Below, one piece after another: positions 33,322 through 53,024 of a DNA stretch of 64,000 nucleotides (positions within the stretch are counted from its first letter, which is position 1; every line of letters begins with the position of its first letter). Both the position numbers and the translations under genes were made by a program. Origin of the DNA: a virus. The notes under the pieces are model-generated. The model was given only the letters and a program-made list of their open reading frames with translations. It was not told the DNA's origin and did no database searches. Location: IMG/VR virus record IMGVR_UViG_3300045988_105143, positions 722 to 64,721 of that record; one strand, given 5' to 3'.

Positions 33322-33328
33322 CCAACAT

Positions 33329-33399: not shown

Positions 33400-33406
33400 C
33401 CAATAT

Positions 33407-33480: not shown

Positions 33481-33486
33481 CCACAT

Positions 33487-33559
33487 GGTCTCATGGAGTA
33501 AGGGTTATCTCGTCACCCTGTCAAGGTGAAGACTACGGGTTCAAATCCCGTTGAGACCG
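33487..33559 (+). tRNA. tRNA-Asp (GUC)
   Basis: Acceptor GGTCTCA/TGAGACC, anticodon stem TCACC/GGTGA, loop CTGTCAA, T-arm ACGGG-TTCAAAT-CCCGT. CCA is encoded. Confidence 0.85.
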
Positions 33560-33707
33560 CCAGACCTCTTGGGGGCTTACGATACTATAAATCTTTTCTC
33601 CTTTCAATTTATAGTCGTATCCCCCTATATGAGGTGTATCATGGTGAGATTAAGGTAACACCTTATGAACGCCCTTATAAAATTAAATTTATTAAAGGAG
33701 GTTTTAT

Positions 33708-36308: not shown

Positions 36309-37172
36309 ATGAAATTTTTAGGTTTGAAATTAGCTGGGCTGGGTGTCTTAGTCCTGTTAGCATTTGCCCTTATCTATAATACTACGTATATGATTTCTGC
36401 TGGTCATGCTGGTGTAGTATTTAACAAAATGGACGGTGGTATTCAACAAGAAACACTTGACCAAGGTTGGCATGTAGTGGCTCCGTGGAAACGTGTTACA
36501 GAATACCCTGTTAGCACAGAGTTAGCATACTACATTGACGGTAATCACGAAGACCGTAAAGACGTAGACGATAGTATCGTTATTGGTACAAAGGACGGTA
36601 AAACAATTAAGGTGGATGCACAAGTTACATATCATATGAATCAAGATTCTTTGCCTCATATCTACAATAAATTTAAAGGTCAAGACGATAGTATTATTGA
36701 ATACGGCTACATGAAACAAAACTTCCAACGTATCGCTAATGATATTTCTTCTCATTATTCTATGATGGATATTGTAGGCGAAAAGAAAGAAGCTTTTAAC
36801 CAAGAATTACTTAAAGAAGTATCCGAATTCTTCGACCAAGATGGTATTATCATCGAGCAAGCTTCACTTGGTAAAGTAGAGCCAGACAATGCGACTAAAG
36901 AAGCTATCCAAGCGGTAGCAAATGCTCAATATAAACAACGTCAAGCAGAATATGAAAAGATTGCCGCTGAAGCTGAAGCTAAGAAAAAAGTGGCAGTCGC
37001 TGAGGGTGATGCACAAGCCAAACGTATCCAAGCAGATGCTGAAGCATACTATAATGCACAAGTGGCTTCTAGCTTAACTCAAGAAATGGTACAACTTAAA
37101 CAAGTTGAAAAATGGGATGGCAAATTGCCTACATATTCTGGTATTGCTAGTGGTTTGTTTAATTTTAAATAG
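36309..37172 (+). CDS. SPFH/Band-7 (prohibitin/HflC-like) membrane protein
   Basis: N-terminal transmembrane helix, then ISAGHAGVVFNKMDGGIQQETLDQGWHVVAPW...VIGTKDGKTIKVDAQVTYH (SPFH core). Ala/Glu/Lys coiled-coil tail. Confidence 0.8.
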   Translation: MKFLGLKLAGLGVLVLLAFALIYNTTYMISAGHAGVVFNKMDGGIQQETLDQGWHVVAPWKRVTEYPVSTELAYYIDGNHEDRKDVDDSIVIGTKDGKTIKVDAQVTYHMNQDSLPHIYNKFKGQDDSIIEYGYMKQNFQRIANDISSHYSMMDIVGEKKEAFNQELLKEVSEFFDQDGIIIEQASLGKVEPDNATKEAIQAVANAQYKQRQAEYEKIAAEAEAKKKVAVAEGDAQAKRIQADAEAYYNAQVASSLTQEMVQLKQVEKWDGKLPTYSGIASGLFNFK

Positions 37173-38861: not shown

Positions 38862-39665
38862 ATGAAGATTAAATCACTTGAGGATAGTTATAAACCTCAT
38901 ATTATAACGTGTCGTCTAAATACTGATTATGCACAGTTAGCTGTATTATCGGATGTCCATGAAGGGCTAAATAATAGAGCTTATCTCAAACAAACGGTTA
39001 GCAACCTATTAAACTTAGGTCCAAATTGCAAAGTGATTCTAGGTGGAGATAGCACTAATACAACGACCAAACACTCAAAAGGTAGCGTACTAGAGGAATC
39101 CTTAGTTGGAGATGAGCAGGTTTACGCATTGGTAGAAGATATTCAACCATTATATGAGAGCGGTCAATTAATCGGCGTGATTGGTGGTAATCATGGGGCA
39201 AGAGCGTATAACGATGCATATATTAGCGTAGAGCAAATGATCTGTGCTTTATTAGGTGACCGTACCCTATATAAGGGTGAGTTTGGTCTTGTATATTTTA
39301 ACGTAAATAAGAACTGCTATGTACATCATATTCTCCATAAGAATAGACGTACTAAAAACTATTACGACTATTTCAATGCTGATGTTACTTGGTTTGAACA
39401 TTTTCATGAACCTAGTGCTACTCCGAAAATAGCCATTGAACATAATAAGTATTCTAAAAAACCTATTGTTAAAGAGGTTTGGGAATTACGGCAGTCTTCT
39501 TTCCAAACGTATCCTAGCTATATTAAAGCTAGTGGTATTAGACCAAATTTGAGTGGGTTCTGGATTACTGAAATGACAGGAAATGAGAGAAACAGAAAAG
39601 TGACTCCTTTTATTGGGGATACTTATTTTGATTTGAGAGGTAGGGGATTGAATGTTAGTCAATGA
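38862..39665 (+). CDS. calcineurin-like metallophosphoesterase
   Basis: Motifs LSDVHEG, GGDSTN, GGNHG and HFHE in canonical order. Confidence 0.7.
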   Translation: MKIKSLEDSYKPHIITCRLNTDYAQLAVLSDVHEGLNNRAYLKQTVSNLLNLGPNCKVILGGDSTNTTTKHSKGSVLEESLVGDEQVYALVEDIQPLYESGQLIGVIGGNHGARAYNDAYISVEQMICALLGDRTLYKGEFGLVYFNVNKNCYVHHILHKNRRTKNYYDYFNADVTWFEHFHEPSATPKIAIEHNKYSKKPIVKEVWELRQSSFQTYPSYIKASGIRPNLSGFWITEMTGNERNRKVTPFIGDTYFDLRGRGLNVSQ

Positions 39666-39936
39666 TATGTTCCTAGACCTTGGGTTTGGATATAAGGTAG
39701 CGATGAAAGAGATTTTTGCAATCATGCCTATGAATGTATCTAGTTCAAAAGAACTCTTCCGTCGATACTTCCGTGAAGGCAAGGTTCTACGAGCCACCAA
39801 AGGGCGTAAAGCTCGCTCCTATTTATTGCTTAATAATGGAATGGTATTTGCTTCTACTTATACGACTGATGAACTTACAGAACGTGTATGGGAATTAAAG
39901 CGTATAGCAAGGGCTATTGATTATGCCGAGGTATAA
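39652..39936 (+). CDS. RemA/DUF370-like small DNA-binding protein
   Basis: FLDLGFGYKVAMKEIFAIMPMNVSSSKELFRRYFREGKVLRATKGRKARSYLLLNNGMVFAS parallels the Bacillus RemA pattern (...IVAI...S.P.KR......G.LIDAT.GR..RS.I......V.LS). Confidence 0.55.
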   Translation: MLVNDMFLDLGFGYKVAMKEIFAIMPMNVSSSKELFRRYFREGKVLRATKGRKARSYLLLNNGMVFASTYTTDELTERVWELKRIARAIDYAEV

Positions 39937-40360
39937 ACCAGGGAGGAGAAAGGCTCGTCCTTTAACTCATAAACAGCATGTTTATGTACAGACAAAGATA
40001 CTTACAGGCAGTAAAAAGGAGGCTCTAAGAGTGGCAGGTTATCCAAAGGAAGGATACAACGTTGAAGATAGCAAGGCTGTACAAAAAGCATTGGCGGACT
40101 ACAAAGACCGTATGGATAAAAAATTCAGAGACAAAGCTGACAAGGTGGCTAATATCTTATTAGATATTATAGAAAACCCTGATACTCCTGCTAAAACGAA
40201 GGTATCCGCAATTAAAGACTGGCTCGATAGAGCAGGCTTAAAACCTGTTGATAAACAAGAGGTAGAAGAAAAACGTTCTATCGATACATCGAGCCGATTA
40301 AGTAGAGACTTAATCAATAAACTAAATATGCTACCAGAAAAAGAAAAAGGCGAGGTATAA
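39923..40360 (+). CDS. terminase-small-subunit-like HTH protein
   Basis: ...LTHKQHVYVQTKILTGSKKEALRVAGYPKEGYNVEDSKAVQKAL resembles Terminase_2 N-terminal helix-turn-helix domains. The start could be the TTG at 39917. Confidence 0.4.
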   Translation: MPRYKPGRRKARPLTHKQHVYVQTKILTGSKKEALRVAGYPKEGYNVEDSKAVQKALADYKDRMDKKFRDKADKVANILLDIIENPDTPAKTKVSAIKDWLDRAGLKPVDKQEVEEKRSIDTSSRLSRDLINKLNMLPEKEKGEV

Positions 40361-40378
40361 TAACCTCGCCAATTTTTA
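40349..40378. terminator. bidirectional rho-independent terminator at the convergence point
   Basis: GGCGAGGT (40349-56) pairs with ACCTCGCC (40363-70). An A-run lies upstream and a T-run downstream, so a U-tract follows the stem on both strands. Confidence 0.75.
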
Positions 40379-40381
40379 TGT

Positions 40382-40594
40382 TTAATTATTTATATATAGG
40401 TTTTTAATAATATATAGTCTATTTTTATCTGCACGAAAATTAATTAAATGCGTAGTGTATGAGCTTGTCAGTTCTTTAACGTCTGTGGTGTCGTAAAATA
40501 AAACGTGAGTTTTACCATTTAATATCCTATGGGTATTGCAGAACTCATAATAGCTACAGCCTGATTGGTATATATAATTAGTTTTTTTATTCAT
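40382..40594 (-). CDS. small protein, YxIKxxY-family paralog
   Basis: GAGGGA ribosome-binding site. C-terminus ...NRLYIIKNLYINN. Confidence 0.6.
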   Translation of the reverse strand: MNKKTNYIYQSGCSYYEFCNTHRILNGKTHVLFYDTTDVKELTSSYTTHLINFRADKNRLYIIKNLYINN

Positions 40595-40796
40595 ATTGTT
40601 CCCTCACAATGTATAAATTACGACAATACGCTAAATGGTCTCCGTCCCAATATGCTTTTCCTGTATCCAGTTCTTGTTTAAGGAATATACCTTCAAATTC
40701 AACAACATCTGTATGCATTTTTAATGGTAGTGTAGTTGTTGTAATCAAGTTATATGCACTAGGCAATGTATCGATATATTTATATTTCATGTACAT
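40587..40796 (-). CDS. small protein, YxIKxxY-family paralog (variant YIVREQY)
   Basis: AAGGAG ribosome-binding site. C-terminus ...RNLYIVREQYE. Confidence 0.55.
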   Translation of the reverse strand: MYMKYKYIDTLPSAYNLITTTTLPLKMHTDVVEFEGIFLKQELDTGKAYWDGDHLAYCRNLYIVREQYE

Positions 40797-41005
40797 AACT
40801 CCTTATATAATTCCTGTATTGTATATATGTGATATTCACGTGTATGTATTAGATATTTACTACGAATCTGGTGAGTGTGTGAGTTGGAATACCTGTATAA
40901 GTCACACCATTTCATAAAAACACTCTCACCTTCTATTACCATGTCTTTTGCTCTAATTAACCAACAGTCATTTCGATTAAATACGTGATATACTATGTAG
41001 TCCAT
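40787..41005 (-). CDS. small protein, YxIKxxY-family paralog (variant YTIQELY)
   Basis: AAGGTG ribosome-binding site. The N-terminus MDYIVYHVFNRNDCWLI parallels the next paralog. C-terminus ...HIYTIQELYKELCT. Confidence 0.55.
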   Translation of the reverse strand: MDYIVYHVFNRNDCWLIRAKDMVIEGESVFMKWCDLYRYSNSHTHQIRSKYLIHTREYHIYTIQELYKELCT

Positions 41006-41021
41006 TTTTAGGCACCTTTTA

Positions 41022-41249
41022 TCATATCATTCTGTACTTCTTTTTAATTTGGTACATATATTTGAGATTTGTATATATCGTACCAGAGATACCATCATAA
41101 CACGTTGTCGTTCCTTGATAGTTGGACACCATTACATTAGTCAGGTATACCGAGTATTTAGTCCCAAATTTATTAACTTGTATCTTATGATTAGTTTTTA
41201 ATATGTAACAATCATCACGACTAAAGATTTGATACGCAATTATTTCCAT
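41022..41249 (-). CDS. small protein, YxIKxxY-family paralog
   Basis: AAGGTG ribosome-binding site. N-terminus MEIIAYQIFSRDDCYIL. C-terminus ...KYMYQIKKKYRMI. Confidence 0.6.
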   Translation of the reverse strand: MEIIAYQIFSRDDCYILKTNHKIQVNKFGTKYSVYLTNVMVSNYQGTTTCYDGISGTIYTNLKYMYQIKKKYRMI

Positions 41250-41250
41250 G

Positions 41251-41403
41251 TTATATCACCTTATATTTTCGTTTAATTCTATACGTCTTATCTCTATCTG
41301 TTGTAATACGTTTTGATTTTGTTCTTACTGTGAGTCTATTTATTCTGGACGGTTTAAATTGGTACAAATCGCAAAATTGCATAAACACAAATTTTTCATC
41401 CAT
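41251..41403 (-). CDS. small protein (50 aa, below ORF-track cutoff), YxIKxxY-family paralog
   Basis: ORF found by hand. C-terminus ...DKTYRIKRKYKVI. The stop lies 1 nt before the next ATG. No clear ribosome-binding site. Confidence 0.4.
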   Translation of the reverse strand: MDEKFVFMQFCDLYQFKPSRINRLTVRTKSKRITTDRDKTYRIKRKYKVI

Positions 41404-41423
41404 GTCAAAATGATCACATTCAA

Positions 41424-41708
41424 TTATCCAACAATCGGACGTATTAAAACCTCCATATCACCACGTAGATTTATAACACGACCATTGATAATCACTTCAT
41501 CTTTGTAAACTTCTTTAACTTGATAAAGATACGCTGTAGTAAATCTAAGACCACTGAGATAGTGTTCGCTATATCCTGAAATCATGTTAGTATATTTTAT
41601 ACATGAAGGTGCTACCATCTCTAAATTACCAGTATGACATTTAATAAATGCTTGGTCTGTAATGATAAATCCAAACGTATCTCCGTTTGCGTGATGTATA
41701 TATAACAT
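41424..41708 (-). CDS. small protein, YxIKxxY-family paralog with C-terminal extension
   Basis: TAGGAG ribosome-binding site. Internal ...AYLYQVKEVYKDE. Confidence 0.55.
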   Translation of the reverse strand: MLYIHHANGDTFGFIITDQAFIKCHTGNLEMVAPSCIKYTNMISGYSEHYLSGLRFTTAYLYQVKEVYKDEVIINGRVINLRGDMEVLIRPIVG

Positions 41709-41709
41709 T

Positions 41710-42009
41710 TTATTCTCCTATATGTTTTAATATTGTTAATGATTTTTGTTCAGTAAATGAACCGTTATAATATTCTTTAATATCATACAGGTTATTGGAC
41801 ATTTGCGAAAAATTAGACCCTATACTAAGTCTATAGTTAGTACCTACATGAGGGGAATACAAAACTACCATGTGTTCAGCTGTATATTCTAATATTTCTC
41901 CGACGTCTATCCTATGACGGCTTTGTTTTAAGCAATTAATATATAATGCAACTGTGTTAGAACCACCAGGATTTGTTAATAAGAATATAATATCGTTCAT
42001 ATTATTCAC
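41710..42009 (-). CDS. small protein, YxIKxxY-family paralog with C-terminal extension
   Basis: Internal ...NNLYDIKEYYNGS. Confidence 0.55.
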   Translation of the reverse strand: MNNMNDIIFLLTNPGGSNTVALYINCLKQSRHRIDVGEILEYTAEHMVVLYSPHVGTNYRLSIGSNFSQMSNNLYDIKEYYNGSFTEQKSLTILKHIGE

Positions 42010-42409
42010 TCTCTTTCAAAATTTTAGATAGTAACTTTTCATCTAGCACCTTTGGTGTATACGTTCTACCGTTATCCATAATTTCCTTATATTTTATCAT
42101 ATCTTCAATAGCCTTAATAAGTGGATAATCTTCTTTATAGACATTATATACTGGTAAGAATAATTCTTGCATATCTTTATTTCTTCTACGTTCCTTAGAT
42201 ACTTCATACAATACCTTAGCGTAGGTATCACCCTGTTCCTGGTCTCCGTCATAGTGATTCTCTACTAAGTGACGGATGTCAGAAATGGCTTTGTCCATTT
42301 CTCCAACACCTTGATACCACTCCATACGAGCTGAGTAAATATAATTCATTACTTCATAAAAACCTATAATCACATTAAACATTTCTTCTTTAGTAAAAGT
42401 CTTTTCCAT
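42002..42409 (-). CDS. hypothetical protein (135 aa)
   Basis: AAGGA ribosome-binding site. Helical, acidic. Confidence 0.55.
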   Translation of the reverse strand: MEKTFTKEEMFNVIIGFYEVMNYIYSARMEWYQGVGEMDKAISDIRHLVENHYDGDQEQGDTYAKVLYEVSKERRRNKDMQELFLPVYNVYKEDYPLIKAIEDMIKYKEIMDNGRTYTPKVLDEKLLSKILKESE

Positions 42410-42420
42410 AGTTTTATTCC

Positions 42421-42654
42421 TTATTCGTTATTAATAATTTCACCATTAATATTTGCAATTTGTACTATACATTTTTTTGCTAACACGTCCTCAGTAATTT
42501 TTAATATATATGGTCTTTGCCTAATGTCTATATAAGTTTTGACCGCACGTGAACCACATACATACGCAAGTACTACTGGAGGCTCTTTCCTACCAAAATA
42601 TTCTGTTAGTGCTTTATTGGTTATCTCTTCTATTTCTTGTAATGTTTTACCCAT
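42421..42654 (-). CDS. hypothetical protein (77 aa)
   Basis: ATG 42654 preceded by GAGGAGAGG. The longer 42672 start lacks a ribosome-binding site. Confidence 0.55.
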   Translation of the reverse strand: MGKTLQEIEEITNKALTEYFGRKEPPVVLAYVCGSRAVKTYIDIRQRPYILKITEDVLAKKCIVQIANINGEIINNE

Positions 42655-42655
42655 T

Positions 42656-42934
42656 TTACCTCTCCTCACCAAATAATATATATTGTAATTGTCCCCATAA
42701 TACCCTAATATCTTGTGTTTTGTATGGTAGTAGGCTGTTAGTGTCTACTATATCAATAATAGTAAATTTCTTTTTATTCCTCATTAACCATTGTAGATAG
42801 TCCCTTGGTAATTGATATCTCTTTTTAAGACTCATACAGTATTGCTCTGCCACTGCCTCTGCAACATATTCTCCGTAGATATAATACAATACTTTATTAG
42901 TCCCTTTCTTCTTGACGGCTAATTTTTTCTTCAT
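42656..42934 (-). CDS. hypothetical basic protein (92 aa)
   Basis: ORF on the coding strand of the leftward operon. Weak ribosome-binding site. Confidence 0.5.
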   Translation of the reverse strand: MKKKLAVKKKGTNKVLYYIYGEYVAEAVAEQYCMSLKKRYQLPRDYLQWLMRNKKKFTIIDIVDTNSLLPYKTQDIRVLWGQLQYILFGEER

Positions 42935-43000
42935 ATCCTTGAGACAATCATTATAATTATTATCAAATTCTTCACTTAAATATCTGCCAAAAAAATCCCA

Positions 43001-44185
43001 TTATAATATTCCTTCGTCTATAATATAATCAATAACAGCTTTTTTAAAACTAGAAGTATTTAATCTATATTCATCAATACTTCCTTTCCCATATAGATAA
43101 AATATAAACACGTCTTCATTTTGCCCTAGTCTATGTATACGGTCTTGAGCCTGTGCTAGTAAAGCAGGCGACCAAGGGTATTCTATAAATACCGCACATC
43201 TACTAGCGGTAAGTGTTAGACCAACAGCACTAGCTTGTAAGCTACAAATAATGATTTGAGTGTCGTGTAATTGGAAGTTATCAATGTTAACTTGCCTTTG
43301 TATTACTGATTGACCACCAACTACTACACTGGCGTTAGGAAAATGCATATGTAATGCTTTGCCTATACTCTTATGATGTACGAATACAACTACTTTTTCT
43401 TCACGCTCTAATAACTGTTTAATAAAATCGATAGAATAGTTTATTTTTTTATATAACACCGCCTTATCTAATCTTTCAATATCGTGAAAACTTCTAGGTG
43501 CAGGTTGATTATACTCAATAATCGGTATTGGTACTATAGTTTTGTTTGGTAATTTGTTTTCTAAATCTCCTTTCGTGCGTCTAAGCCAGATACTATTCAT
43601 CGTATCGTGTAGTTCCTGGATATTTGAACAGCCACTATAATCAACGCCATACTGGCTATATCTAGGATTACAATACGTATCTAGGAATTTTTCTCTACCA
43701 CCTACCTTGTGTATATTATTGAGAATTTCCATTTGTGTAACAAGTTCACGAGGTCTATTTAACATCGGAGTACCACTAATCAATATCTTATATGGTATTT
43801 TCTTAGACCATTCTAATGCTAGTTGAGTTCGTTTACTTGTTTCATTTTTAAATGCATGACTTTCATCAAGCACTAATTGTTTTATTGGTAAACGCTGGAT
43901 AATAAATTTATACTTATTCATTCTTTCATAGTTCGTAATAATAATATCTTGTGTCAAGTTATCTATCGGTATTCTTCTACCAGTCCACCTCTCAATCTCC
44001 TTGCTCCAGTTTAATTTAAGGGAGCTAGGACAAATTACTAAAATCGGGAATTGATTACGAATAATCATAGCTTCTATCACAGTCCTGGTTTTACCCATTC
44101 CCATGTCATCACAGACAAAAGCTGACGAATTATTTAATATAAAATTTACACCCTCCTTTTGATGGGGTAATAGTGGCGATTTCAT
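43001..44185 (-). CDS. minimal SNF2-family ATPase/helicase (394 aa)
   Basis: Motif I DDMGMGKT, motif II LVLDESHAFKN, motif III SGTPMLNRPRELV, motif VI QAQDRIHRLGQ. Confidence 0.9.
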   Translation of the reverse strand: MKSPLLPHQKEGVNFILNNSSAFVCDDMGMGKTRTVIEAMIIRNQFPILVICPSSLKLNWSKEIERWTGRRIPIDNLTQDIIITNYERMNKYKFIIQRLPIKQLVLDESHAFKNETSKRTQLALEWSKKIPYKILISGTPMLNRPRELVTQMEILNNIHKVGGREKFLDTYCNPRYSQYGVDYSGCSNIQELHDTMNSIWLRRTKGDLENKLPNKTIVPIPIIEYNQPAPRSFHDIERLDKAVLYKKINYSIDFIKQLLEREEKVVVFVHHKSIGKALHMHFPNASVVVGGQSVIQRQVNIDNFQLHDTQIIICSLQASAVGLTLTASRCAVFIEYPWSPALLAQAQDRIHRLGQNEDVFIFYLYGKGSIDEYRLNTSSFKKAVIDYIIDEGIL

Positions 44186-44238
44186 ATATACACCCGCTTT
44201 ACTTTGTAAAAAATTCTTTCATCACCTGGTTCTAATTT

Positions 44239-44457
44239 TCATGCACTCAGTTGTTGAATATAAACATCAGAAAAGCCACTATCACTAATATACAATATCC
44301 CAGTACCATCATTAAAGCTGTCAACATAAGCCCCGTAATAGCCCTTCCCAATATTAATAATAAATTCATCACAAGCCTCCGTCCCCATAAACGCTAATAG
44401 TGTTTGTCTATGTCTATGTTCATGCTCCATGAATAGATGATATAAATCCATATCCAT
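44239..44457 (-). CDS. hypothetical protein (72 aa)
   Basis: GAGGTGG ribosome-binding site. Confidence 0.55.
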   Translation of the reverse strand: MDMDLYHLFMEHEHRHRQTLLAFMGTEACDEFIINIGKGYYGAYVDSFNDGTGILYISDSGFSDVYIQQLSA

Positions 44458-44466
44458 ATTACCACC

Positions 44467-44700
44467 TCATTTGTAGAATTGTTTAATTTTATATACCCTA
44501 GGAATGTCTGCTGTGTATTTGGTAAATATATTGCTATAGAACATACCCGCTCTATGGGTGTTACATATTTCTATATCGCCTGAACCTGGATTCATATAAG
44601 TTATTTTTAATACATAAATTCTATCAGCAGACTGCATATATATAAAGCAATCATTCTCCTTAAAATAATTGTCGTATCTACGTATACTCATTCCACTCAT
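44467..44700 (-). CDS. small protein, YxIKxxY-family paralog
   Basis: AAGAGG ribosome-binding site. C-terminus ...PRVYKIKQFYK. Confidence 0.6.
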   Translation of the reverse strand: MSGMSIRRYDNYFKENDCFIYMQSADRIYVLKITYMNPGSGDIEICNTHRAGMFYSNIFTKYTADIPRVYKIKQFYK

Positions 44701-44930
44701 TTGAATAACCTCTTTATTTCGTATAGTGACTTAAAATCGTGATGGTATTTCCAAAATGCATTACGGTAGTAATTGTCATATATACATATAGAATCAATTT
44801 CCATTACTAAAGAACCAATATTTACATCTAGTACTGTAAATATGCACCTCGCTATATTATTATTTGTGTCATAATATAGTAGCCTATCACCTGATTGAAT
44901 ATTTTTGTCATATAATTTTATGTCATACAT
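44697..44930 (-). CDS. small protein, YxIKxxY-family paralog
   Basis: AAGGAGG ribosome-binding site. C-terminus ...KSLYEIKRLFK. Confidence 0.6.
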   Translation of the reverse strand: MYDIKLYDKNIQSGDRLLYYDTNNNIARCIFTVLDVNIGSLVMEIDSICIYDNYYRNAFWKYHHDFKSLYEIKRLFK

Positions 44931-45153
44931 TATAAGCCTCCTTTATTTTGAATAAATTATAATAATCATCTTGCTCCTTCCAAAAGGTATATTCTATTAC
45001 ACTTGGCGTACCTGATAAAATCAGAACCTTGAGATAGCTATAACTTAGCCTTTTATCTATCACTTTGAGTTTAAAATATTTACCGCTTTGTGATATAAAC
45101 ATATATTCTTTATTTTCTATAAGAGAATTATCATAAAGTCCTATGGATATCAT
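44923..45153 (-). CDS. small protein, YxIKxxY-family paralog
   Basis: C-terminus ...YNLFKIKEAYNV. Confidence 0.6.
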   Translation of the reverse strand: MISIGLYDNSLIENKEYMFISQSGKYFKLKVIDKRLSYSYLKVLILSGTPSVIEYTFWKEQDDYYNLFKIKEAYNV

Positions 45154-45154
45154 G

Positions 45155-45454
45155 TTAATACCTTTCTTTCAATCTAAGCATATTTTTAATATCTATTATG
45201 TTTTTAAAGAAATAGTCGCGAGAATGTCTGTGATATAATGGATAATGCTCGATACGCATAGCTCGTTCGAGATTATTTATTTCAGTTATCACAAAACTTT
45301 TCCAACCAACATCTGAATCCCATAATATAATATCACCATTTTTGAATAGTTTGTTATAGATATCTCTTTCCTTGTCCTTGTTTAACAGCCCTATATCTAT
45401 GAAGTCTGGGTATGAATATTGAAGTTTTTTCCAACTTTTAAATATCTCACTCAT
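45155..45454 (-). CDS. small protein, distant YxIKxxY-family member
   Basis: C-terminus ...IIDIKNMLRLKERY (degenerate motif). Confidence 0.5.
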   Translation of the reverse strand: MSEIFKSWKKLQYSYPDFIDIGLLNKDKERDIYNKLFKNGDIILWDSDVGWKSFVITEINNLERAMRIEHYPLYHRHSRDYFFKNIIDIKNMLRLKERY

Positions 45455-45612
45455 TGTCTTGCCTTTCTGATAGCCTCATCTATCAAATCTGTTAGTTTTT
45501 CAAAACCCACTGAAAATGTTTCAAAGTCGTCATATCATGTAAAGTCTAAACTATCTTCTACATCATGGACAATTTTATTATATTTCTTTTCATCAATTTG
45601 TATCGTAATCAT
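45451..45612 (-). pseudogene. 53-codon ORF interrupted by one in-frame TGA (codon 26, nt 45535-45537)
   Basis: AAGGAGG ribosome-binding site and TAAATG junction at the start. ATGA overlap with the next gene at the end. The second half has no start codon of its own. Confidence 0.45.
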
Positions 45613-45837
45613 TTAGTATACCTCCTTTATTTTAAATATATAATTTTGTGTTCGACTTGTTTTCAGAAAATGAGAATTACAAAAAGAATCATCTCTAAAT
45701 CTTCTAAATGATATTTGCATATATTGGGATTCTGGCTGTAGATTTTCAACACGAACCTCATAGACCAAATAATTATCGAGAGAGAAAGATTCATATATAA
45801 ATTTATCACCATTTTTGAAAAATTCCTCGTGTGTCAT
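45613..45837 (-). CDS. small protein, YxIKxxY-family paralog
   Basis: GGAGG ribosome-binding site. C-terminus ...NYIFKIKEVY. Confidence 0.6.
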   Translation of the reverse strand: MTHEEFFKNGDKFIYESFSLDNYLVYEVRVENLQPESQYMQISFRRFRDDSFCNSHFLKTSRTQNYIFKIKEVY

Positions 45838-45861
45838 ACTAACCTCCAGAGAGGAAAGGGG

Positions 45862-46869
45862 CTATTTCGCCCCTTTATATTCCTTGTCACCAGCAAAAAC
45901 AGTTTTATTTTGAATACGCTTATTAATCACAGCACTAGGATAATCCACCCAGAATACAATACTGTAGTCTTTAATAAGATAATCATATACAGATGTGTAA
46001 TTATCATAGGCAAATTGATTAAACTCGTCGATAAATTCCTCAATAGCGTCGTCGTCCATTTTACCAAAGAATACTTCTACAGGGTAATATTTACGAGCTA
46101 CACCGTCATCGTCAATTGTATCAACGATACCTTTTAAACAATCTGGGTATGTCTTTTTGAGGAACTCCTCATATGTCTTAGTTGTTTGGTTAAGATGTTC
46201 CGACGCATCATCATAAGCACTATCATAACTATAGTTACCGTAGCCATACAAATCATAGTCATAGTAAGATGTTTTCCATGTTGTACGGTAAGTTTTATAA
46301 GAGGTATTGGAATACCAAGCACCGCTTTCTTTGCTTTCTGTGAACTCGCCTAACATAGCCACACATCCGTTATTACCAAGGAATACTAGTTTATTGCCTC
46401 TTGTATGTTGTGCCAGTAATTCTTGTACTTGTTTTTTCCAAATAGCGTTACCTAAAGGGTAAGCCATTTCTTTAATAAACTGCATGGTATCGCTATGCTT
46501 GGATGCCATACCTAATTTAGGCGTGTAATCACTAAGAATACCGTTGTGAACCATACCAACATCACAATATGTATTTGCTTTCCCCATCGCTTTATAATCA
46601 TCACTCACAGCGAATGGGTGACAAGTTGAAGGGGCAATAGCACCACTTGTTGCAATACGGAAATGGAATACACGGTGAATATCTGACGGGATTTTTATAG
46701 CTTCAGCCCAGAACTCTTCGAAAGTAAAGAACCCTTTTTTAATATGGGTTTTACCTTTGGCGGAGTCCCAATACATAAGACCAGCACCGTCATTATTATA
46801 ATCAAAACAATTTTTTAATTCTTTTTCATTCAATTCTAAACCTGCTTCATATACTGCAATTACGCACAT
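45862..46869 (-). CDS. class II (Ntn-type) glutamine amidotransferase-like protein with Tyr/Asp-rich C-terminal half
   Basis: AAGGAG ribosome-binding site. N-terminal MC nucleophile (MCVIAVY). ...FHFRIATSG...CHPF...VHNGILSDY matches the Gn_AT_II pattern. Confidence 0.7.
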   Translation of the reverse strand: MCVIAVYEAGLELNEKELKNCFDYNNDGAGLMYWDSAKGKTHIKKGFFTFEEFWAEAIKIPSDIHRVFHFRIATSGAIAPSTCHPFAVSDDYKAMGKANTYCDVGMVHNGILSDYTPKLGMASKHSDTMQFIKEMAYPLGNAIWKKQVQELLAQHTRGNKLVFLGNNGCVAMLGEFTESKESGAWYSNTSYKTYRTTWKTSYYDYDLYGYGNYSYDSAYDDASEHLNQTTKTYEEFLKKTYPDCLKGIVDTIDDDGVARKYYPVEVFFGKMDDDAIEEFIDEFNQFAYDNYTSVYDYLIKDYSIVFWVDYPSAVINKRIQNKTVFAGDKEYKGAK

Positions 46870-46921
46870 AATATTTCTCCTTTTTCTAAATATAAATTAT
46901 AATATAAAACCAAACCAAGAA

Positions 46922-48607
46922 TTACATGTTCAAGTTATCCATTCTTGTTAGCAACTCTTTATATTGACGCTCTTCCGCTAATTTACGGACATTTGCGAAT
47001 GTAAAATCTTCCCATTGCCCATTAGCTAAGTCCGTTAAGACATCTGTCATTTGGATAAAGCTCCGAATAACATCAGCTTCATATGTAGAGTTCCACAATC
47101 GAATTTCAATCGTTGCGGAATTTTGAACATTTACGGCACTATACCGTTCGCAACGAGCTTCACTATAGCAACTTTCAAAAGTAGAGCAACACTCTACATC
47201 TGTAGGTCTAGCCCATTGATGAGCATCACTGCTGTTACGTTTGGCAAAACGTACTAGCTTGTCATAATTTTCAGCGAAGAACCGTACCAGTTTACCGATA
47301 TGGGAACGACTTTCAAAGTGGTCTCTGGATACATGGATATGTATACCAGCACCTTCAGGTTCGTTATACCCTGCATTATCTAATGTTTCTACGAGGTTTT
47401 CCCAGTCAATATTATTTAGCATGAACTGTGTTGTACAAGGGTGAGTCACTGCTTCAAACCCATCTTCCAACGAGCCGTCATATTTGCAATACCAATGAGG
47501 ATACTTGCCGAAAATTTTTCTTGCTGTATGGTCGGAACAGCCACCGCCTTGCACCTCATATTCTAAGCCAAGATATTTATTGGTGCCCTCACCGAAAAAC
47601 TTAGCGTCAGGCTTATAAGAATAAGAGCGGATAAACTCTGTTTCTCCGTGAAGATAATAGTTATCTTCATCAACGATGTCATCGTCATCGTAACAGCGGT
47701 CACAGATAACATAATCATTTTCTGTGACGTTGGTATTATCTTCTAAATAATACTCACCACAATGAGCACATTGTCTGAAATAGGCATTTAAAGAACGATA
47801 GCTGACATAATCTTCGATAGAACCTACATAGACACAATCACCTCTACTATAATAATTATTGTCATAACTAGACCAGTGGTAGTTTTCTAAGCAGGAACTA
47901 CAAACATTTTTATCGTAATTATCCAGGTACTCTGTATCTGAATCATGATGAATACATCCACAGTCTGCACAGATAAAATACTCATCTGTGAGCCCGTTAG
48001 CCACATCTTGACGAGTAATAATATCACCGTCTTCTGTAGTAACATAATTCTCACTATTTTTAATAACAATGTCATCAGACAAAGACGAGCAGGCAACTTC
48101 TTCTTTATTTAATGGCATTAGGTCAACGCCGACTTTCACTTTAATATTGCCGTCTACAACACGCCCTGTTAAGACTGACACTGGTACTGTTAGTTCAGTC
48201 CAGAGCGAAGTGGATTCTTTATTAAACTCGTTTGGGGAATTCGGAATTTTCACTACACCGCCCTCGGAGTCAATATAAATAATAGCACCGTCCACGTTGT
48301 AGAATTTTTCCGTTTCTACGAAGTCGCCAGTTTTGGTTTTGTAAATATGTTTATTGCCAAACCCTACGTCTACAACGGTTTCATCTATAGTCATTTTTAC
48401 AATACCATTAGCAAAATAAATGACATTAGGTGGTAACGTAACGTTTTCCTCATGGTAAGGTTTAGGAAGGTCAGCGACTGGAATACGCTTAATATTAGTA
48501 CTATCAGCCGTATCTCGCAAAAAATAAAAATCCTCACCACTTGACATTTGTGTAGCCAATGCTTCAAGTTCCATTAATTTCCCATCAATTACATAAAGTT
48601 TTTCCAT
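46922..48607 (-). CDS. amidoligase (Amidoligase_2 / glutamine-synthetase-like COOH-NH2 ligase) with two CxxC zinc ribbons
   Basis: GGAGG ribosome-binding site. Ribbons CADCGC...CSSC and CAHCGE...CDRC. C-terminal LGLEYEVQGGG...KYDGSLEDGFEAVTHP...GAGIHIHVS fits the amidoligase family signature. Confidence 0.65.
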   Translation of the reverse strand: MEKLYVIDGKLMELEALATQMSSGEDFYFLRDTADSTNIKRIPVADLPKPYHEENVTLPPNVIYFANGIVKMTIDETVVDVGFGNKHIYKTKTGDFVETEKFYNVDGAIIYIDSEGGVVKIPNSPNEFNKESTSLWTELTVPVSVLTGRVVDGNIKVKVGVDLMPLNKEEVACSSLSDDIVIKNSENYVTTEDGDIITRQDVANGLTDEYFICADCGCIHHDSDTEYLDNYDKNVCSSCLENYHWSSYDNNYYSRGDCVYVGSIEDYVSYRSLNAYFRQCAHCGEYYLEDNTNVTENDYVICDRCYDDDDIVDEDNYYLHGETEFIRSYSYKPDAKFFGEGTNKYLGLEYEVQGGGCSDHTARKIFGKYPHWYCKYDGSLEDGFEAVTHPCTTQFMLNNIDWENLVETLDNAGYNEPEGAGIHIHVSRDHFESRSHIGKLVRFFAENYDKLVRFAKRNSSDAHQWARPTDVECCSTFESCYSEARCERYSAVNVQNSATIEIRLWNSTYEADVIRSFIQMTDVLTDLANGQWEDFTFANVRKLAEERQYKELLTRMDNLNM

Positions 48608-49394: not shown

Positions 49395-49423
49395 ATTGTA
49401 CCACATGGACACGATTTTATCAA
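49395..49423 (-). promoter_or_regulatory. sigma-A-type promoter for the leftward operon
   Basis: On the minus strand: TTGATA (49423-18), 17-nt spacer ending TGG, TACAAT (49400-395). Confidence 0.65.
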
Positions 49424-50118
49424 ATTCCGCTTATTTCCTGGGCTCGTTGCACCTCAACCCTGGAACACACCCATTCATTCTCATCAATTCTCATTATCCG
49501 TTAGGTCGTGCCTGCACGATATAAAAAATCCGAAAACGAGGAATAAGAAAAATAAAATTCCAACTATCAATACTAAGGTAATAAAATAATCTATGAAGTA
49601 ATACTATATATAAATATAAAAAACACTATTATAACTCAAATAAACGAATTATAATAGTAATACAGAAATATAGATATATCTCTAAAATTGATTTAAATCG
49701 CCTATAAGGCTAGTTTAATATAATTAGGGTATGTCAGTACCCTATAACACGTTAAAGCGTGTTAGAACTCAAATAAATGAATTTTAGGACTAGTTTATGC
49801 ACAAAGATACATCACAATCGACGGCGAGGGAAATAAAAAAATAAATTCCCATTCCTTCTATAATACAGTAATAAGGAATAAGAATATAAAGTATAAGAAT
49901 AAAAGATATAAGATAACTAAAATTAAGATAGTATCAATTTGAAAATTAATAAGTGATCATGTTTATCATTATGATTAATAATAAATAGTAGATTATATTA
50001 TATATGTGCATTCTCAATGAATATCATTCTCAACCAGTAAGTAAAAAAATAATTGATGTGTTAATGATAATGATAATCAATATGTATCTATTATCGTACA
50101 TATGTTCTGTTAATAAAT

Positions 50119-50148
50119 AAAAAAAAAGAGGGACGTATAACGTCCCCC
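50119..50148 (-). terminator. rho-independent terminator (leftward)
   Basis: On the minus strand, GGGACGT pairs with ACGTCCC (50130-46) followed by a 9-T run (plus-strand A-run 50119-27). Confidence 0.8.
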
Positions 50149-51575: not shown

Positions 51576-53024
51576 GTGGTCAATATATCTAATGAAGTAG
51601 ATGCGAAGATTGCAGAAGCCTTTAGACGTGGGAAAGAGAACCTAGTTACATTCCATAGGTTGTTTTTACCAGTTGAAGATGAAGTTGAGCCTGCTTGGTT
51701 CCATTATACATGGAGTGATATTCTATTACATGGGGATAAACACTTTGCCATTGAAGGGTTCCGTGAAAGTGCGAAGAGTTCGTTTGTATTGCGTGCGTTT
51801 CCGTTGTATCGTTTAACATATCCAACTAAGAAAGCCAATTATATTGTTTTTATCATGGCTAACCAAACTAAGGCTAGTAAGCAATTAAAAGAAATTGCTG
51901 ATACTTACGTATCAAATGAATTTTTAAGTCTCAACCTAGTTAAGGTCAAACAACAATCCGATAAAGCATTCGAATGTATTGTCACTGACGAAAAGGGAGA
52001 AGAAATACGTGTTCGTATGGAAGCATATGGTAAAGGTTCTTCTATTCGTGGTTTGTTATGGGGGGATAAACGCCCTGATATTATTATCATAGATGACCCT
52101 CAAGACGTAGAAGATAGTCTTTCTGATACTATTCAAACAAACGACTATGATTGGTTTTTGTCTGATGCTTATTTCTTAGGTAAGAAAACACGAATCTTTA
52201 TGATTGGAAATAACCTTGGCGAAAAATGTTTGATTGAGCAAGTTATTAATAATAAAGACTTATTGAAATTCAATGCTTTACGTATCCCTGTTATGAATGA
52301 ACAAGGTGAATCAAACTGGGCAGAGAGATTCCCAGTATCTGAAATACTAGAGGAAAAAGAAGCTTGGAGAGCTTTGGGTAAACTGGATATTTGGGAAAGG
52401 GAGAAAATGTGTATTGCTATTTCCCCAGAACGCCAAATGTTTAAAAAAGAATACTTTATGTATTATGCTCCTAACGAGCTTAAACTGGAAGATTGCTCTA
52501 TTTATACCACAGTCGATTTAGCTATTTCAGAAAAGGAAAGTGCCGACTATACAGTAATATGTACAGTAGCTGTTAATCCAGATAACAAATGGTTTATCTT
52601 AGATATTGATTTTGATAGGTATGACCCTTCCCAAACTATTGACGGTATCTTCCGTGCCGTTCAAAAGTATAAACCTATATATGTAGGTGTAGAAAAGGTT
52701 GCTTATCAAGCATCTGTAAAACATTACTTAGAGAAAGAAATGCCTAAGCGTAATATTTGGTTTACTGTAAAGGACTTGGAAGCATCTAGTCGAAAGGAAT
52801 TACGTATTGCTACTCTCCAACCACGGTTTAAAACTGGTAATATCTGGTTCCCTATGGGAGCCAAATTCCTTACTGAATTAGAGAGTGAATTACAATCATT
52901 CCCTAAAGGTTTGCATGACGACTTAATCGACGCCTTGGCTTATATCTCTCAAATTGCATTACCGCCTGTAGGTAATTTTAATTCTGTCAGTACTGCTGAC
53001 ATCCCATTAGGAGGTGCTATGTAA
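51576..53024 (+). CDS. terL: terminase large subunit
   Basis: GTG start after AAGGAAGGAG (the start is uncertain by a few codons). ATPase motifs FRESAKSS and DIIIIDDPQD. Nuclease-domain LHDDLIDALAY. Confidence 0.9.
   Translation: MVNISNEVDAKIAEAFRRGKENLVTFHRLFLPVEDEVEPAWFHYTWSDILLHGDKHFAIEGFRESAKSSFVLRAFPLYRLTYPTKKANYIVFIMANQTKASKQLKEIADTYVSNEFLSLNLVKVKQQSDKAFECIVTDEKGEEIRVRMEAYGKGSSIRGLLWGDKRPDIIIIDDPQDVEDSLSDTIQTNDYDWFLSDAYFLGKKTRIFMIGNNLGEKCLIEQVINNKDLLKFNALRIPVMNEQGESNWAERFPVSEILEEKEAWRALGKLDIWEREKMCIAISPERQMFKKEYFMYYAPNELKLEDCSIYTTVDLAISEKESADYTVICTVAVNPDNKWFILDIDFDRYDPSQTIDGIFRAVQKYKPIYVGVEKVAYQASVKHYLEKEMPKRNIWFTVKDLEASSRKELRIATLQPRFKTGNIWFPMGAKFLTELESELQSFPKGLHDDLIDALAYISQIALPPVGNFNSVSTADIPLGGAM

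What the first reader, a model, noticed from the sequence alone, without database searches (positions are those of the whole stretch)
40382..45837. Twelve-member family of ~50-100-aa proteins with a conserved C-terminal [YF]x[IV]Kxx[YF] motif, in two arrays flanking a minimal SNF2 helicase
The leftward operon carries seven members at 40382-42009 and five at 44467-45837. Their C-terminal regions read:
- LYIIKNLY
- LYIVREQY
- IYTIQELY
- MYQIKKKY
- TYRIKRKY
- LYQVKEVY
- LYDIKEYY
- VYKIKQFY
- LYEIKRLF
- LFKIKEAY
- IFKIKEVY
- a degenerate LRLKERY

Several members also share N-terminal features, for example MEIIAYQIFSRDDCYIL against MDYIVYHVFNRNDCWLI, and an ...ND/GD-x-hydrophobic strand. Apart from these anchors they have diverged almost completely.

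Genes are packed with overlapping or abutting stops and starts. The arrays surround an SNF2 ATPase and sit downstream of a host-type promoter, so expression is probably early.

Tandem, fast-diverging small paralogs in an early operon fit host-takeover or anti-defence arsenals. I do not recognise the family.
Basis: seen in the sequence. Interest (0 to 1): 0.65.

Follow-up and report, generated by a model that had tools for sequence, protein, structure and literature searches.

The report
Orphan small beta-barrel paralogs flanking SNF2
A roughly 65-kb human-gut phage carries 13 tandem copies of an undescribed, clade-restricted family of 50-100-residue proteins, probably small beta-barrels, whose shared "motif" is the last strand of the fold; the family is real and turns over fast, but its function is untested and this kind of gene array is already familiar in phages.

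Summary
All 12 ORFs exist at the stated coordinates with the quoted motifs, and the motif is far above chance. A 13th member (44182-44457) is interrupted by a TGG->TGA nonsense change.

The five genes upstream of SNF2 are clear full-length paralogs. The seven downstream genes fall into five subgroups that match them, by sequence, mainly over the C-terminal 10-35 residues.

AlphaFold models of one member from each side give small beta-barrels with the motif as the final strand: m8 at pLDDT 88.7 and m2 at 74.4. Fold matches (Tudor, PWWP, KOW, Sm) are all weak.

The family has no Pfam, PHROG, NCBIfam or PDB match. Only 34 clusters among 1.84 billion representatives match it, two of them repeat-protein false positives. 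Every small hit whose contig or context was seen lies in this one phage clade, next to the SNF2 gene.

Copy number ranges from 13-14 to 1-7 per genome. Members are 28-67% identical where neighbouring enzymes are 84-91%. In-frame chimeras, a cassette swap, a truncation and a nonsense allele show birth-and-death turnover. Pooled dN/dS is 0.34 against 0.12 for the enzymes, which means relaxed purifying selection rather than gene-wide positive selection.

Early expression and a host-takeover or anti-defence role are plausible but untested. Verdict: a real, new orphan family of a familiar kind, of moderate interest.

The parts
40382..40594 (-). m1, 70 aa, motif LYIIKNLY; subgroup g1
   Evidence: ORF. 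Ranks first in the leave-one-out HMM test, E=0.023. Three 67-aa orthologs in L036-L038.
40587..40796 (-). m2, 69 aa, motif LYIVREQY; subgroup g2, the most widely conserved downstream type
   Evidence: ORF. Weak in the leave-one-out test (rank 122), but 110 database relatives. AF2 all-beta model at pLDDT 74.4 with the motif as last strand. Profile-profile P=2.4e-4 against gB.
40787..41005 (-). m3, 72 aa, motif IYTIQELY; subgroup g345
   Evidence: blastp to m5 2.4e-5 and to m4 7.6e-4. jackhmmer group.
41022..41249 (-). m4, 75 aa, motif MYQIKKKY; subgroup g345
   Evidence: jackhmmer from m4 reaches m3, m5 and m11, linking the two arrays.
41251..41403 (-). m5, 50 aa, motif TYRIKRKY; N-terminally truncated g345 member
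   Evidence: Orthologs are 77 aa and carry the N-terminal IAYxVFxxxDCW segment that m5 lacks.
41424..41708 (-). m6, 94 aa, motif LYQVKEVY followed by a 25-residue tail; subgroup g6
   Evidence: Ranks first in the leave-one-out test, E=0.0027. Orthologs.
41710..42009 (-). m7, 99 aa (GTG start), motif LYDIKEYY followed by an 18-residue tail; subgroup g7
   Evidence: Ranks first in the leave-one-out test, E=0.025. 95-aa database orthologs.
42002..42934 (-). Three non-family genes between array A and SNF2: 135 aa, 83 aa and 92 aa
   Evidence: The 135-aa protein matches phrog_2717, of unknown function. They serve as negative controls in hhalign. The 135-aa gene is conserved at 54-84% across the clade.
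43001..44185 (-). SNF2-family ATPase, 394 aa, the conserved anchor between the two arrays
   Evidence: Pfam SNF2-rel_dom 2.6e-32 and Helicase_C 6.3e-12. phrog_62 DNA helicase. 64-87% identical in relatives.
44182..44457 (-). 13th family member, interrupted by an in-frame TGA at 44239-44241. The frame continues ...KLEPGDERIFYKVKRVYI* and overlaps the SNF2 start.
   Evidence: Relatives encode an intact 93-aa protein with TGG (Trp) at that codon and the motif FYKVKEVY.
44467..44700 (-). m8, 77 aa, motif VYKIKQFY; subgroup gB
   Evidence: AF2 pLDDT 88.7, pTM 0.75: helix, four strands, short helix, then the motif strand.
44697..44930 (-). m9, 77 aa, motif LYEIKRLF; subgroup gB
   Evidence: blastp to m8 6.7e-8 over the full length.
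44923..45153 (-). m10, 76 aa, motif LFKIKEAY; subgroup gB
45155..45454 (-). m11, 99 aa, motif LRLKERY ([YF]KLKERY in orthologs); subgroup gB with an N-terminal extension
45455..45612 (-). Small non-family ORF with an in-frame TGA
   Evidence: Relatives encode an intact protein of about 53 aa with Leu (TTA/CTG) at that codon.
45613..45837 (-). m12, 74 aa, motif IFKIKEVY; subgroup gB
45862..48607 (-). Upstream operon partners: a 335-aa protein with an N-terminal Cys (MCVIAVY...), and a 561-aa Amidoligase_2 protein with zinc-ribbon-like CxxC pairs
   Evidence: Pfam Amidoligase_2 2.2e-7. phrog_2443 amidoligase. GATase_4 only at E=0.092. The gene order amidoligase, 309-335-aa gene, family, SNF2 is kept in the three relative contexts inspected.
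49395..49423 (-). Best sigma-70-like promoter candidate for the operon: TTGATA, 17-nt spacer, TGgTACAAT
   Evidence: It lies in an intergenic stretch downstream of the terminator at 50128-50148. This is a consensus match only.
40349..40370 (.). Bidirectional intrinsic-terminator-like hairpin that ends both the leftward operon and the convergent rightward genes

Best explanation
The 13 genes are a lineage-specific, tandemly expanded family of small (50-100 aa) soluble proteins, probably with an SH3/Sm-like small beta-barrel fold.

What the motif is. The conserved [YF]x[IVL]Kxx[YF] 'motif' is the terminal beta-strand of the predicted fold. That it completes the barrel and supplies core aromatic and aliphatic side chains, and is therefore the one segment kept while the rest of the sequence drifts, is inferred; no coordinates were examined.

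Where the genes sit. They lie in the non-structural leftward operon. gB-type genes are upstream of the SNF2 ATPase gene and five other subgroups are downstream.

How the family evolves. It follows birth-and-death dynamics: duplication, in-frame recombination between neighbouring copies, cassette replacement, truncation and nonsense loss. Selection on orthologs that remain at least 70% identical is purifying but relaxed.

Most likely function (inferred, not shown). Each paralog is a small binding module whose variable surface engages a different host or phage macromolecule during the non-structural phase of infection. That would make the family a diversified accessory, host-interaction or counter-defence repertoire rather than an enzyme or a virion part.

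Shown here: the genes, the family, its restriction to this clade, the predicted fold class, and the turnover. Inferred: expression timing, binding function and targets.
For: The family is real:
- Motif enrichment and shuffle control.
- Full-length paralogy of m8-m12.
- m4 links the two arrays.
- All 15 subgroup pairs align the motif in register at P=4e-4 to 0.09, while control pairs give 0.03-0.9.
- Deep profiles of gB against g2 give P=2.4e-4 with a co-linear alignment.

The genes encode proteins under selection:
- Synonymous variation within the motif.
- Pooled dN/dS of 0.34.
- More than 240 database relatives.

Fold:
- The m8 model has pLDDT 88.7, and the motif residues 69-76 begin the last strand, E69-72.
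- The independent m2 model, built from g2 sequences only, has pLDDT 74.4 and is all-beta with the motif as last strand.
- Foldseek returns only small beta-barrels (Tudor, PWWP, KOW, myosin SH3, Sm, EF-P domain I) plus many uncharacterised small phage proteins.

Orphan status:
- No Pfam, PHROG, NCBIfam or PDB-sequence match.
- Only 34 clusters of 1.84 billion representatives match, two of them repeat-protein false positives.
- Where a full-length contig is recorded it is mostly about 63-67 kb, and the three contexts inspected all show the same operon.

Turnover:
- Family genes are 28-67% identical where SNF2, the Ntn-like gene and the 135-aa gene are 84-91% and terminase is 98%.
- Group-HMM counts run from 12-13 down to 1-7 per locus. 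Adding the intact ortholog of the 13th member gives 13-14 in the closest relatives.
- A 38%-identical cassette sits between 81-98%-identical flanks.
- Four clean in-frame chimeras, for example 32/32 identity to one parent and 35/35 to the other.
- A nonsense allele and a truncated copy in this window.

Variable surfaces: pI ranges from 5.0 to 10.4.
Against: - No functional or expression data exist.
- Similarity between subgroups outside the last 10-35 residues is not statistically secure. m2 fails the leave-one-out test.
- The two models differ in detail: m8 has an N-terminal helix and five strands, while m2 has seven strands.
- All fold matches are weak (E>=5e-3, TM about 0.45-0.6).
- g345, g1, g6 and g7 were not modelled.
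- Gene-wide dN/dS below 1 gives no direct sign of an arms race.
- Conservation of the terminal strand could also reflect a shared partner rather than a purely structural role.
Confidence: 0.5

Rival explanations
1. The motif is a shared docking element. All members use the conserved strand to bind one common partner, and their variable parts recruit different targets. The partner could be the SNF2 ATPase they flank or a host hub protein. The family would then be a set of adaptor or regulatory subunits.
For: The family lies within -1.9 to +3.9 kb of the SNF2 start in the loci surveyed, with a fixed upstream/downstream split of subgroups. The motif is the only element shared by all subgroups. 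A conserved Lys and exposed aromatics are typical of interfaces.
Against: Both models put the motif in a beta-strand of the fold, not in a free tail. The Lys is replaced by Ile, Arg or Gln in many members, for example YKVIELY, YIVREQY and YTIQELY. Synteny within a single clade cannot separate functional linkage from simple inheritance.
Confidence: 0.2
2. This is not one family. Two or more unrelated sets of small ORFs (gB on one side; g345, g2, g1, g6 and g7 on the other) share a short Tyr/Lys/Ile-rich strand by convergence or by exchange of a C-terminal segment.
For: Between-subgroup profile matches are confined mostly to 10-35 C-terminal residues, with probabilities of 44% or less. The m8 and m2 models differ in secondary-structure layout. 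Chimera formation shows that C-terminal segments can be swapped.
Against: jackhmmer from m4 reaches m11. The gB-g2 alignment is co-linear with N-terminal, middle and C-terminal anchors. Both models fall in the small beta-barrel class with the motif in the same topological position. Lengths and operon position are the same, and the motif is in register in all 15 pairs.
Confidence: 0.15
3. The small proteins are substrates or tags of the adjacent amidoligase plus Ntn/amidotransferase-like pair. This would be a Pup/PafA-like or peptide-ligation system in which the conserved Lys or the C-terminus is modified.
For: An Amidoligase_2 gene and an N-terminal-Cys gene sit immediately upstream of array B in the window and in the three relative contexts inspected. 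PafA-type ligases belong to the carboxylate-amine ligase superfamily (my own knowledge, not tested here).
Against: C-termini are not conserved: they end 0-32 residues after the motif with varied residues. The Lys is not invariant. The segment is predicted to be folded, not a flexible tail. Co-occurrence is seen only within one clade, so it carries little information.
Confidence: 0.07
4. The proteins are packaged into the capsid and injected with the DNA. The conserved motif would act as a packaging signal, analogous to the capsid-targeting sequence shared by the otherwise divergent T4 internal proteins.
For: The overall pattern resembles the T4 ip genes: small, hypervariable proteins that share only a short terminal segment (my own knowledge).
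Against: The genes lie in the non-structural operon, on the opposite strand from the head and tail genes. The motif is C-terminal or internal and part of the predicted fold. No protease-site pattern is evident.
Confidence: 0.05
5. The motif is a nucleotide-level or compositional artefact. It could be a Shine-Dalgarno or translational-coupling element embedded in gene ends, or a chance result of Lys/Tyr/Ile-rich composition.
For: In m10, m9, m11 and m2 the K-E/R-E codons (AAGGAG, AAGAGG, GAAAGG, GAGGGAA) lie 6-10 nt before the next start codon and resemble a Shine-Dalgarno. The family is aromatic-rich, 16% against 9.4%.
Against: Shuffles give 0.45 motif-bearing proteins against 11 observed. The motif is kept 9-32 residues before the stop in m6, m7 and many relatives, where it cannot serve the next gene. 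The Tyr, Ile and Tyr positions are not explained by a Shine-Dalgarno. Synonymous codons vary.
Confidence: 0.03

Closest known systems
SH3-like / Sm-like small beta-barrel domains (Tudor, PWWP, KOW, myosin N-terminal SH3, LSm)
   Same: Size of about 60-80 residues. Predicted five- to seven-stranded all-beta core. These are the top Foldseek matches for both modelled members.
   Different: All matches are weak (E>=0.05 against PDB, TM 0.4-0.55). There is no sequence-profile match to any of these Pfam families. m8 has an extra N-terminal helix. No Tudor aromatic cage or Sm1/Sm2 signature was demonstrated.
Uncharacterised small phage barrel proteins such as DUF1642 (Listeria phage LP-114) and DUF2187 (Listeria phage LP-031)
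   Same: Best BFVD structural matches, at E=4.9e-3 and 1.4e-2 with TM about 0.5. They are small phage-encoded proteins of unknown function.
   Different: No Pfam hit to DUF1642 or DUF2187 at E<=1. They come from different phage groups. The [YF]x[IV]Kxx[YF] strand and the tandem arrays are not known features of those families.
Hypervariable arrays of small accessory or host-takeover genes in other phages, for example the T4 ip (internal protein) loci and the SPO1 host-takeover module (my own knowledge)
   Same: Clusters of small, fast-turnover, clade-restricted ORFs in non-structural regions. For the T4 ip genes, members share only a short terminal segment.
   Different: There is no homology. 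Here the shared segment is C-terminal and part of the fold, not an N-terminal cleavable targeting peptide. Members are true tandem paralogs, split into two arrays around an SNF2 gene.
Pup/PafA-type small-protein conjugation (carboxylate-amine ligase plus a small tag)
   Same: An amidoligase-superfamily gene and an amidohydrolase-like gene lie next to small proteins.
   Different: The members are predicted to be folded, not disordered. There is no conserved C-terminal Gly-Gly-Gln/Glu, and the C-termini vary.

Membership tests
   Met for m8-m12 and for m3/m4/m5. m4 reaches m11. For m1, m2, m6 and m7 against the rest, only the C-terminal 10-35 residues are supported, at P=4e-4 to 0.09.
   The motif is in register in all 15 subgroup pairs. 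It forms the last beta-strand in both independent AF2 models.
SH3-like / Sm-like small beta-barrel fold class | Compact barrel of at least five strands, recognisable by structure comparison | tested here: inconclusive
   The models are confident to moderate (pLDDT 88.7 and 74.4). The top Foldseek hits are exclusively small barrels, but none reaches E<=1e-3 and TM is 0.4-0.6.
Tudor / PWWP (Royal family) | Sequence-profile match; aromatic cage that binds methylated Lys or Arg | tested here: not met
   No Pfam hit at E<=1. No PDB sequence-profile hit below E=0.68. Cage geometry could not be examined because no coordinates were available.
Sm / LSm | Sm1/Sm2 sequence motifs (Pfam LSM); ring oligomerisation | tested here: not met
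   No Pfam LSM hit. The m2 model resembles SmE only at E=0.16. Oligomerisation cannot be tested with these tools.
DUF1642 / DUF2187 phage proteins | Pfam profile match | tested here: not met
   No Pfam hits for any member. There is only a weak structural resemblance.
Any PHROG or NCBIfam family | Profile match at E<=0.1 with sensible coverage | tested here: not met
   Searches give only isolated hits far below cut-off.
Pup-like conjugated tags | Intrinsically disordered protein with a conserved C-terminal GG[QE] | tested here: not met
   The models are folded. C-terminal residues vary: Y, K, NV, E, INN, or tails of up to 32 aa.
T4 internal-protein-like encapsidated proteins | N-terminal capsid-targeting sequence with a prohead-protease cleavage site; presence in virions | not testable with these tools
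   The shared segment here is C-terminal and structured. Virion content is unknown.
Known anti-defence proteins (anti-CRISPR, anti-restriction and others) | Homology to a characterised inhibitor, or a demonstrated inhibitory activity | not testable with these tools
   No anti-defence library is on hand. There are no named homologs among more than 240 database relatives.

The most novel reading that the evidence does not exclude
The family is a diversified set of interchangeable specificity subunits. All would dock through the conserved terminal strand onto one phage enzyme of the same operon, either the SNF2 translocase or the amidoligase/Ntn pair. Each would direct that enzyme to a different host target, such as nucleoid or defence proteins. 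The phage would then carry a modular, recombination-shuffled targeting system rather than a collection of independent inhibitors.
Probability: 0.1. Interest if true: 0.75.

Novelty: new member of a known kind. Interest (0 to 1): 0.38.

Why it matters
Tandem, clade-restricted, fast-turnover small phage proteins are a likely place to find new host-takeover and counter-defence functions. This family offers 13 natural variants in one genome and hundreds across a human-gut phage clade, all apparently built on one small predicted scaffold. Natural chimeras mark tolerated recombination points.

If the members bind distinct targets, they would form a compact natural library of binding modules and a way to map what this uncultured gut phage manipulates in its host. 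The family also shows how a 'conserved C-terminal motif' can turn out to be the last strand of a rapidly diverging fold.

As it stands, this is a well-documented orphan family with no demonstrated function, so its immediate impact is modest.

Tried and rejected
- Megablast of the region against GenBank phages found nothing. Protein-level searches with SNF2 and portal found only relatives at 33% identity or less, and none identified the host.
- Pfam, PHROGs, NCBIfam and a PDB sequence profile gave no family for any member.
- Two long hits in the exhaustive profile search, P0142 (Big_2 repeats) and P0143 (FG-GAP repeats), are repeat-summed false positives and were rejected.
- The motif hit at 32289-32624 lies in the tRNA cluster and was rejected.
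- Stop-codon recoding was considered as the cause of the two in-frame TGAs and rejected. They replace different amino acids (Trp and Leu), there is no suppressor tRNA, and TGA ends 12 of 79 long ORFs.
- A Shine-Dalgarno or composition origin for the motif was rejected.
- Contigs of 135-213 kb were checked for host flanks. The stretches read carry only the same phage operon and gave no host information. The 952-kb contig listed for P0253 was not among the places returned.
- The first dN/dS script timed out and was rerun with a faster aligner.
- The first chimera analysis, using local alignment, was uninformative. It was redone with per-half scoring.
- Two literature searches found no description of this family.
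- The g345, g1, g6 and g7 subgroups could not be modelled.

Full report
OBSERVATION

They carry the quoted C-terminal strings and the quoted N-terminal similarity between m3 and m4. A 394-aa protein with SNF2-rel_dom and Helicase_C domains lies between the two arrays.

The motif [YF]x[IV][KRQ]xx[YF] occurs 19 times in 58,630 residues of six-frame ORFs. Eleven of those are in the candidates, which total about 930 residues. One outside hit, at 32.3 kb, falls in a cluster of 12 tRNA genes and is spurious. Shuffling each candidate gives on average 0.45 motif-bearing proteins and at most 4, against 11 observed. The twelfth member (m11, LRLKERY) reads [YF]KLKERY in all its orthologs.

IS THE CONSERVATION AT PROTEIN LEVEL?

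The host uses strong Shine-Dalgarno sites. Where genes abut, the Lys-Glu codons of the motif (AAG GAG G) double as the next gene's ribosome-binding site. That cannot explain the motif, for three reasons:
- The Tyr, Ile and Tyr positions are unrelated to a Shine-Dalgarno.
- Synonymous codons vary freely.
- In m6, m7 and many relatives the motif lies 9-32 residues before the stop.

Pooled dN/dS among close relatives is 0.34, so these are expressed proteins under purifying selection.

ONE FAMILY OR SEVERAL?

The five genes upstream of SNF2 (m8-m12, subgroup 'gB') are clear full-length paralogs. Pairwise blastp gives 7e-8 to 7e-3. A profile of the five picks out nothing else in the window, and jackhmmer from any one of them recovers the other four plus about 80 relatives.

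The seven downstream genes split into five subgroups: g345 (m3, m4, m5), g2 (m2), g1 (m1), g6 (m6) and g7 (m7).
- jackhmmer from m4 reaches m11, which links the two arrays.
- In leave-one-out profile tests, 8 of 12 members rank first among about 890 ORFs. m2 fails.
- Profile-profile comparison of orthologous-group alignments aligns the motif in register in all 15 subgroup pairs, at P=4e-4 to 0.09. Six unrelated small proteins from the same operon give P=0.03-0.9 at scattered positions.
- With deep alignments, gB against g2 gives P=2.4e-4 and a co-linear 70-column alignment, but only the last 20 or so residues align confidently.

A shared C-terminal module is therefore secure. Full-length common ancestry of all subgroups is likely but not proven by sequence.

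FOLD

An AlphaFold2 model of m8, built from 119 sequences, is confident (pLDDT 88.7, pTM 0.75). It has an N-terminal helix, four strands, a short helix, and a final strand that starts at the motif, residues 69-72.

An independent model of m2, the weakest member, was built from g2 sequences only. It has moderate confidence (pLDDT 74.4) and is all-beta with seven strands. The motif again forms the last strand.

Foldseek finds nothing at E<=1e-3. Even so, every plausible match is a small beta-barrel:
- Tudor, PWWP, NusG-KOW and myosin SH3 for m8.
- Sm/LSm, the NOT-box, EF-P domain I and SH3 for m2.
- DUF1642, DUF2187 and many unnamed small phage proteins in BFVD.

The 'C-terminal motif' is best read as the final strand of the barrel. 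A closing or core role for it is an inference, because no coordinates were inspected.

DISTRIBUTION

No member matches Pfam, PHROGs, NCBIfam or PDB sequences. An exhaustive HMMER search of 1.84 billion cluster representatives finds only 34 clusters. Two of those are repeat-protein false positives.

Word-indexed searches with wide alignments return about 240 relatives. None has a name or a domain. Where a long contig is recorded it is mostly about 63-67 kb. The three contexts inspected, including human-gut samples such as a Hadza metagenome, show the same gene order: amidoligase, a 309-335-aa gene, family genes, SNF2, more family genes, then a convergent RemA-like gene.

In 28 IMG/VR loci anchored on SNF2, family genes always lie within -1.9 to +3.9 kb of the SNF2 start. 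gB types are upstream (with one downstream exception, in L056) and the other subgroups are downstream. Other lineages carry further motif-bearing subtypes.

DYNAMICS

Against the closest relatives, terminase is 98% identical. SNF2 is 87%, the Ntn-like gene 91%, the 135-aa gene 84% and the amidoligase 69%. Family genes are only 28-67% identical.

By group HMMs, copy number falls from 12-13 in the closest relatives to 1-7 elsewhere. The intact ortholog of the 13th member brings the closest relatives to 13-14.

Specific events seen:
- One position holds 38%-identical genes between 81-98%-identical flanks, which is a cassette replacement.
- Four database proteins are clean in-frame chimeras of adjacent paralogs. 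P0156, for example, matches one parent at 32/32 residues and the other at 35/35.
- In this window, the ORF at 44239-44457 is a 13th member cut short by TGG->TGA. The frame remains open through ...FYKVKRVYI* and overlaps the SNF2 start.
- m5 lacks the N-terminal third found in its 77-aa orthologs.
- A neighbouring non-family ORF (45455-45612) also carries a nonsense TGA, at a Leu codon. The two TGAs replace different amino acids, no suppressor tRNA is present, and TGA is a normal stop here, so this is decay and not recoding.

Pooled dN/dS is 0.34 for family genes and 0.12 for the three large enzymes in the same genome pairs. Constraint is relaxed, but there is no gene-wide positive selection. 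Much of the 'fast divergence' comes from recombination and replacement.

CONTEXT AND TIMING

The window is nearly a whole podovirus-like genome:
- Terminase, a Cpn10-like gene, an SU10-type portal and head and tail genes run rightward from 51.6 kb.
- Replication and nucleotide-metabolism genes lie at 17-40 kb.
- Twelve tRNA genes lie at 32-33.6 kb.

The leftward operon runs from about 51.0 to 40.4 kb and ends at a bidirectional terminator at 40349-40370. A good extended -10 promoter-like site (49423-49395) follows a strong terminator (50148-50128) and precedes the amidoligase and the arrays. However, promoter-like matches are not enriched in the region (60 found, 63.6 expected) and nothing here shows timing.

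MECHANISM

My best reading is a repertoire of small beta-barrel binding modules. The conserved terminal strand would be structural, and the variable surfaces (pI 5.0-10.4) would engage different host or phage macromolecules during the non-structural phase of infection.

Rivals, in order of plausibility:
1. The strand is a common docking element for SNF2 or a host hub.
2. The subgroups are not all homologous.
3. The proteins are substrates of the adjacent amidoligase pair.
4. They are encapsidated, like the T4 internal proteins.
5. The motif is a nucleotide-level artefact. This is essentially refuted.

COMPARISON AND NOVELTY

The fold class is generic, and hypervariable arrays of small accessory genes are familiar in phages. 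The family itself is undescribed, unnamed and confined to one uncultured gut-phage clade. I rate it a new member of a known kind, of moderate interest.

Noticed in passing
The 72-aa ORF ends at a TGA where four relatives have TGG (Trp). The frame continues for 18 codons through FYKVKRVYI* and overlaps the SNF2 ATG.
   Followed up: yes
window 45455-45612 (-): The small non-family gene between m12 and m11 has an in-frame TGA where relatives have Leu (TTA/CTG). It is a second nonsense allele in this stretch. Relatives also carry an extra gB paralog here that the window lacks.
   Followed up: yes
window 41251-41403 (-): m5 (50 aa) is N-terminally truncated compared with its 77-aa orthologs, for example L036:5786-6016.
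   Followed up: partly
window 44923-45153, 44697-44930, 45155-45454 and 40587-40796 (gene ends): The Lys-Glu or Arg-Glu codons of the motif (AAGGAGG, AAGAGG, GAAAGG, GAGGGAA) double as the Shine-Dalgarno of the abutting downstream gene. This is a dual coding and translation-signal constraint.
   Followed up: yes
P0156, P0041, P0052, P0125 (database proteins); parents in L037, L050, L055: Clean in-frame chimeras between adjacent gB paralogs. Identity switches from about 95-100% to one parent to about 90-100% to the neighbour at a single breakpoint.
   Followed up: yes
L055:6524-6751 vs L043:6537-6764: Genes at the same position are only 38% identical, while the flanking genes are 81-98% identical. 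This is a cassette replacement within an otherwise near-identical background.
   Followed up: partly
window 16049-16298 and 16308-16422 (+): Rfam matches above gathering score to EGFOA-assoc-1 (293.6 bits) and EGFOA (50.8 bits) RNAs. A 2026 preprint reports that EGFOA RNAs form RNA-only trimers and dimers, and one example is labelled 'Vei'. A phage-borne copy may hint at the host and at a role for these RNAs.
   Followed up: partly
window 17343-18479 and 19325-20968 (+): The DNA polymerase appears split. The two ORFs match the N-terminal (positions 42-444) and C-terminal (479-1049) parts of the same PHROG, phrog_405. About 850 nt lie between them and include a 172-aa ORF at 18585-19103.
   Followed up: no
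window 6238-14553 (+): A 2771-aa ORF among the structural genes has no PHROG or Pfam match. It could be a giant virion or ejection protein.
   Followed up: partly
window 45855-45876: An 8-bp G+C-rich hairpin (AAAGGGGC..GCCCCTTT) lies between the Ntn-like gene and m12, and no T-tract follows it on the coding strand. It could be an RNA processing or stability element, or an attenuator, at the head of array B.
   Followed up: no
window 49430-50128 (-): An AT-rich stretch of about 700 nt without ORFs lies between a strong terminator and the candidate promoter. It contains repeated TTTATTTGAGTT elements and could be a regulatory region or a replication origin.
   Followed up: no
window 46922-48607 and 45862-46869 (-): An Amidoligase_2 protein with an N-terminal extension of about 340 aa carrying several CxxC pairs, followed by a protein starting MCVIAVY. 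The latter looks like an N-terminal-Cys Ntn hydrolase, with GATase_4 matching only at E=0.09. The pair is kept in the relative contexts inspected.
   Followed up: partly
window 32196-33562 (+): A cluster of 12 tRNA genes: Val, Ser x2, Glu, Asn, Tyr, Phe, Trp, Leu, Gln, Met and Asp.
   Followed up: no
window 39652-39936 (+), 53024-53293 (+), 36309-37172 (+): Unusual accessory genes for a phage: a RemA-like regulator (PF04025), a Cpn10/GroES-like co-chaperonin (named from the Pfam hit on the same-position, same-length gene in relatives), and an SPFH/Band-7 protein.
   Followed up: no
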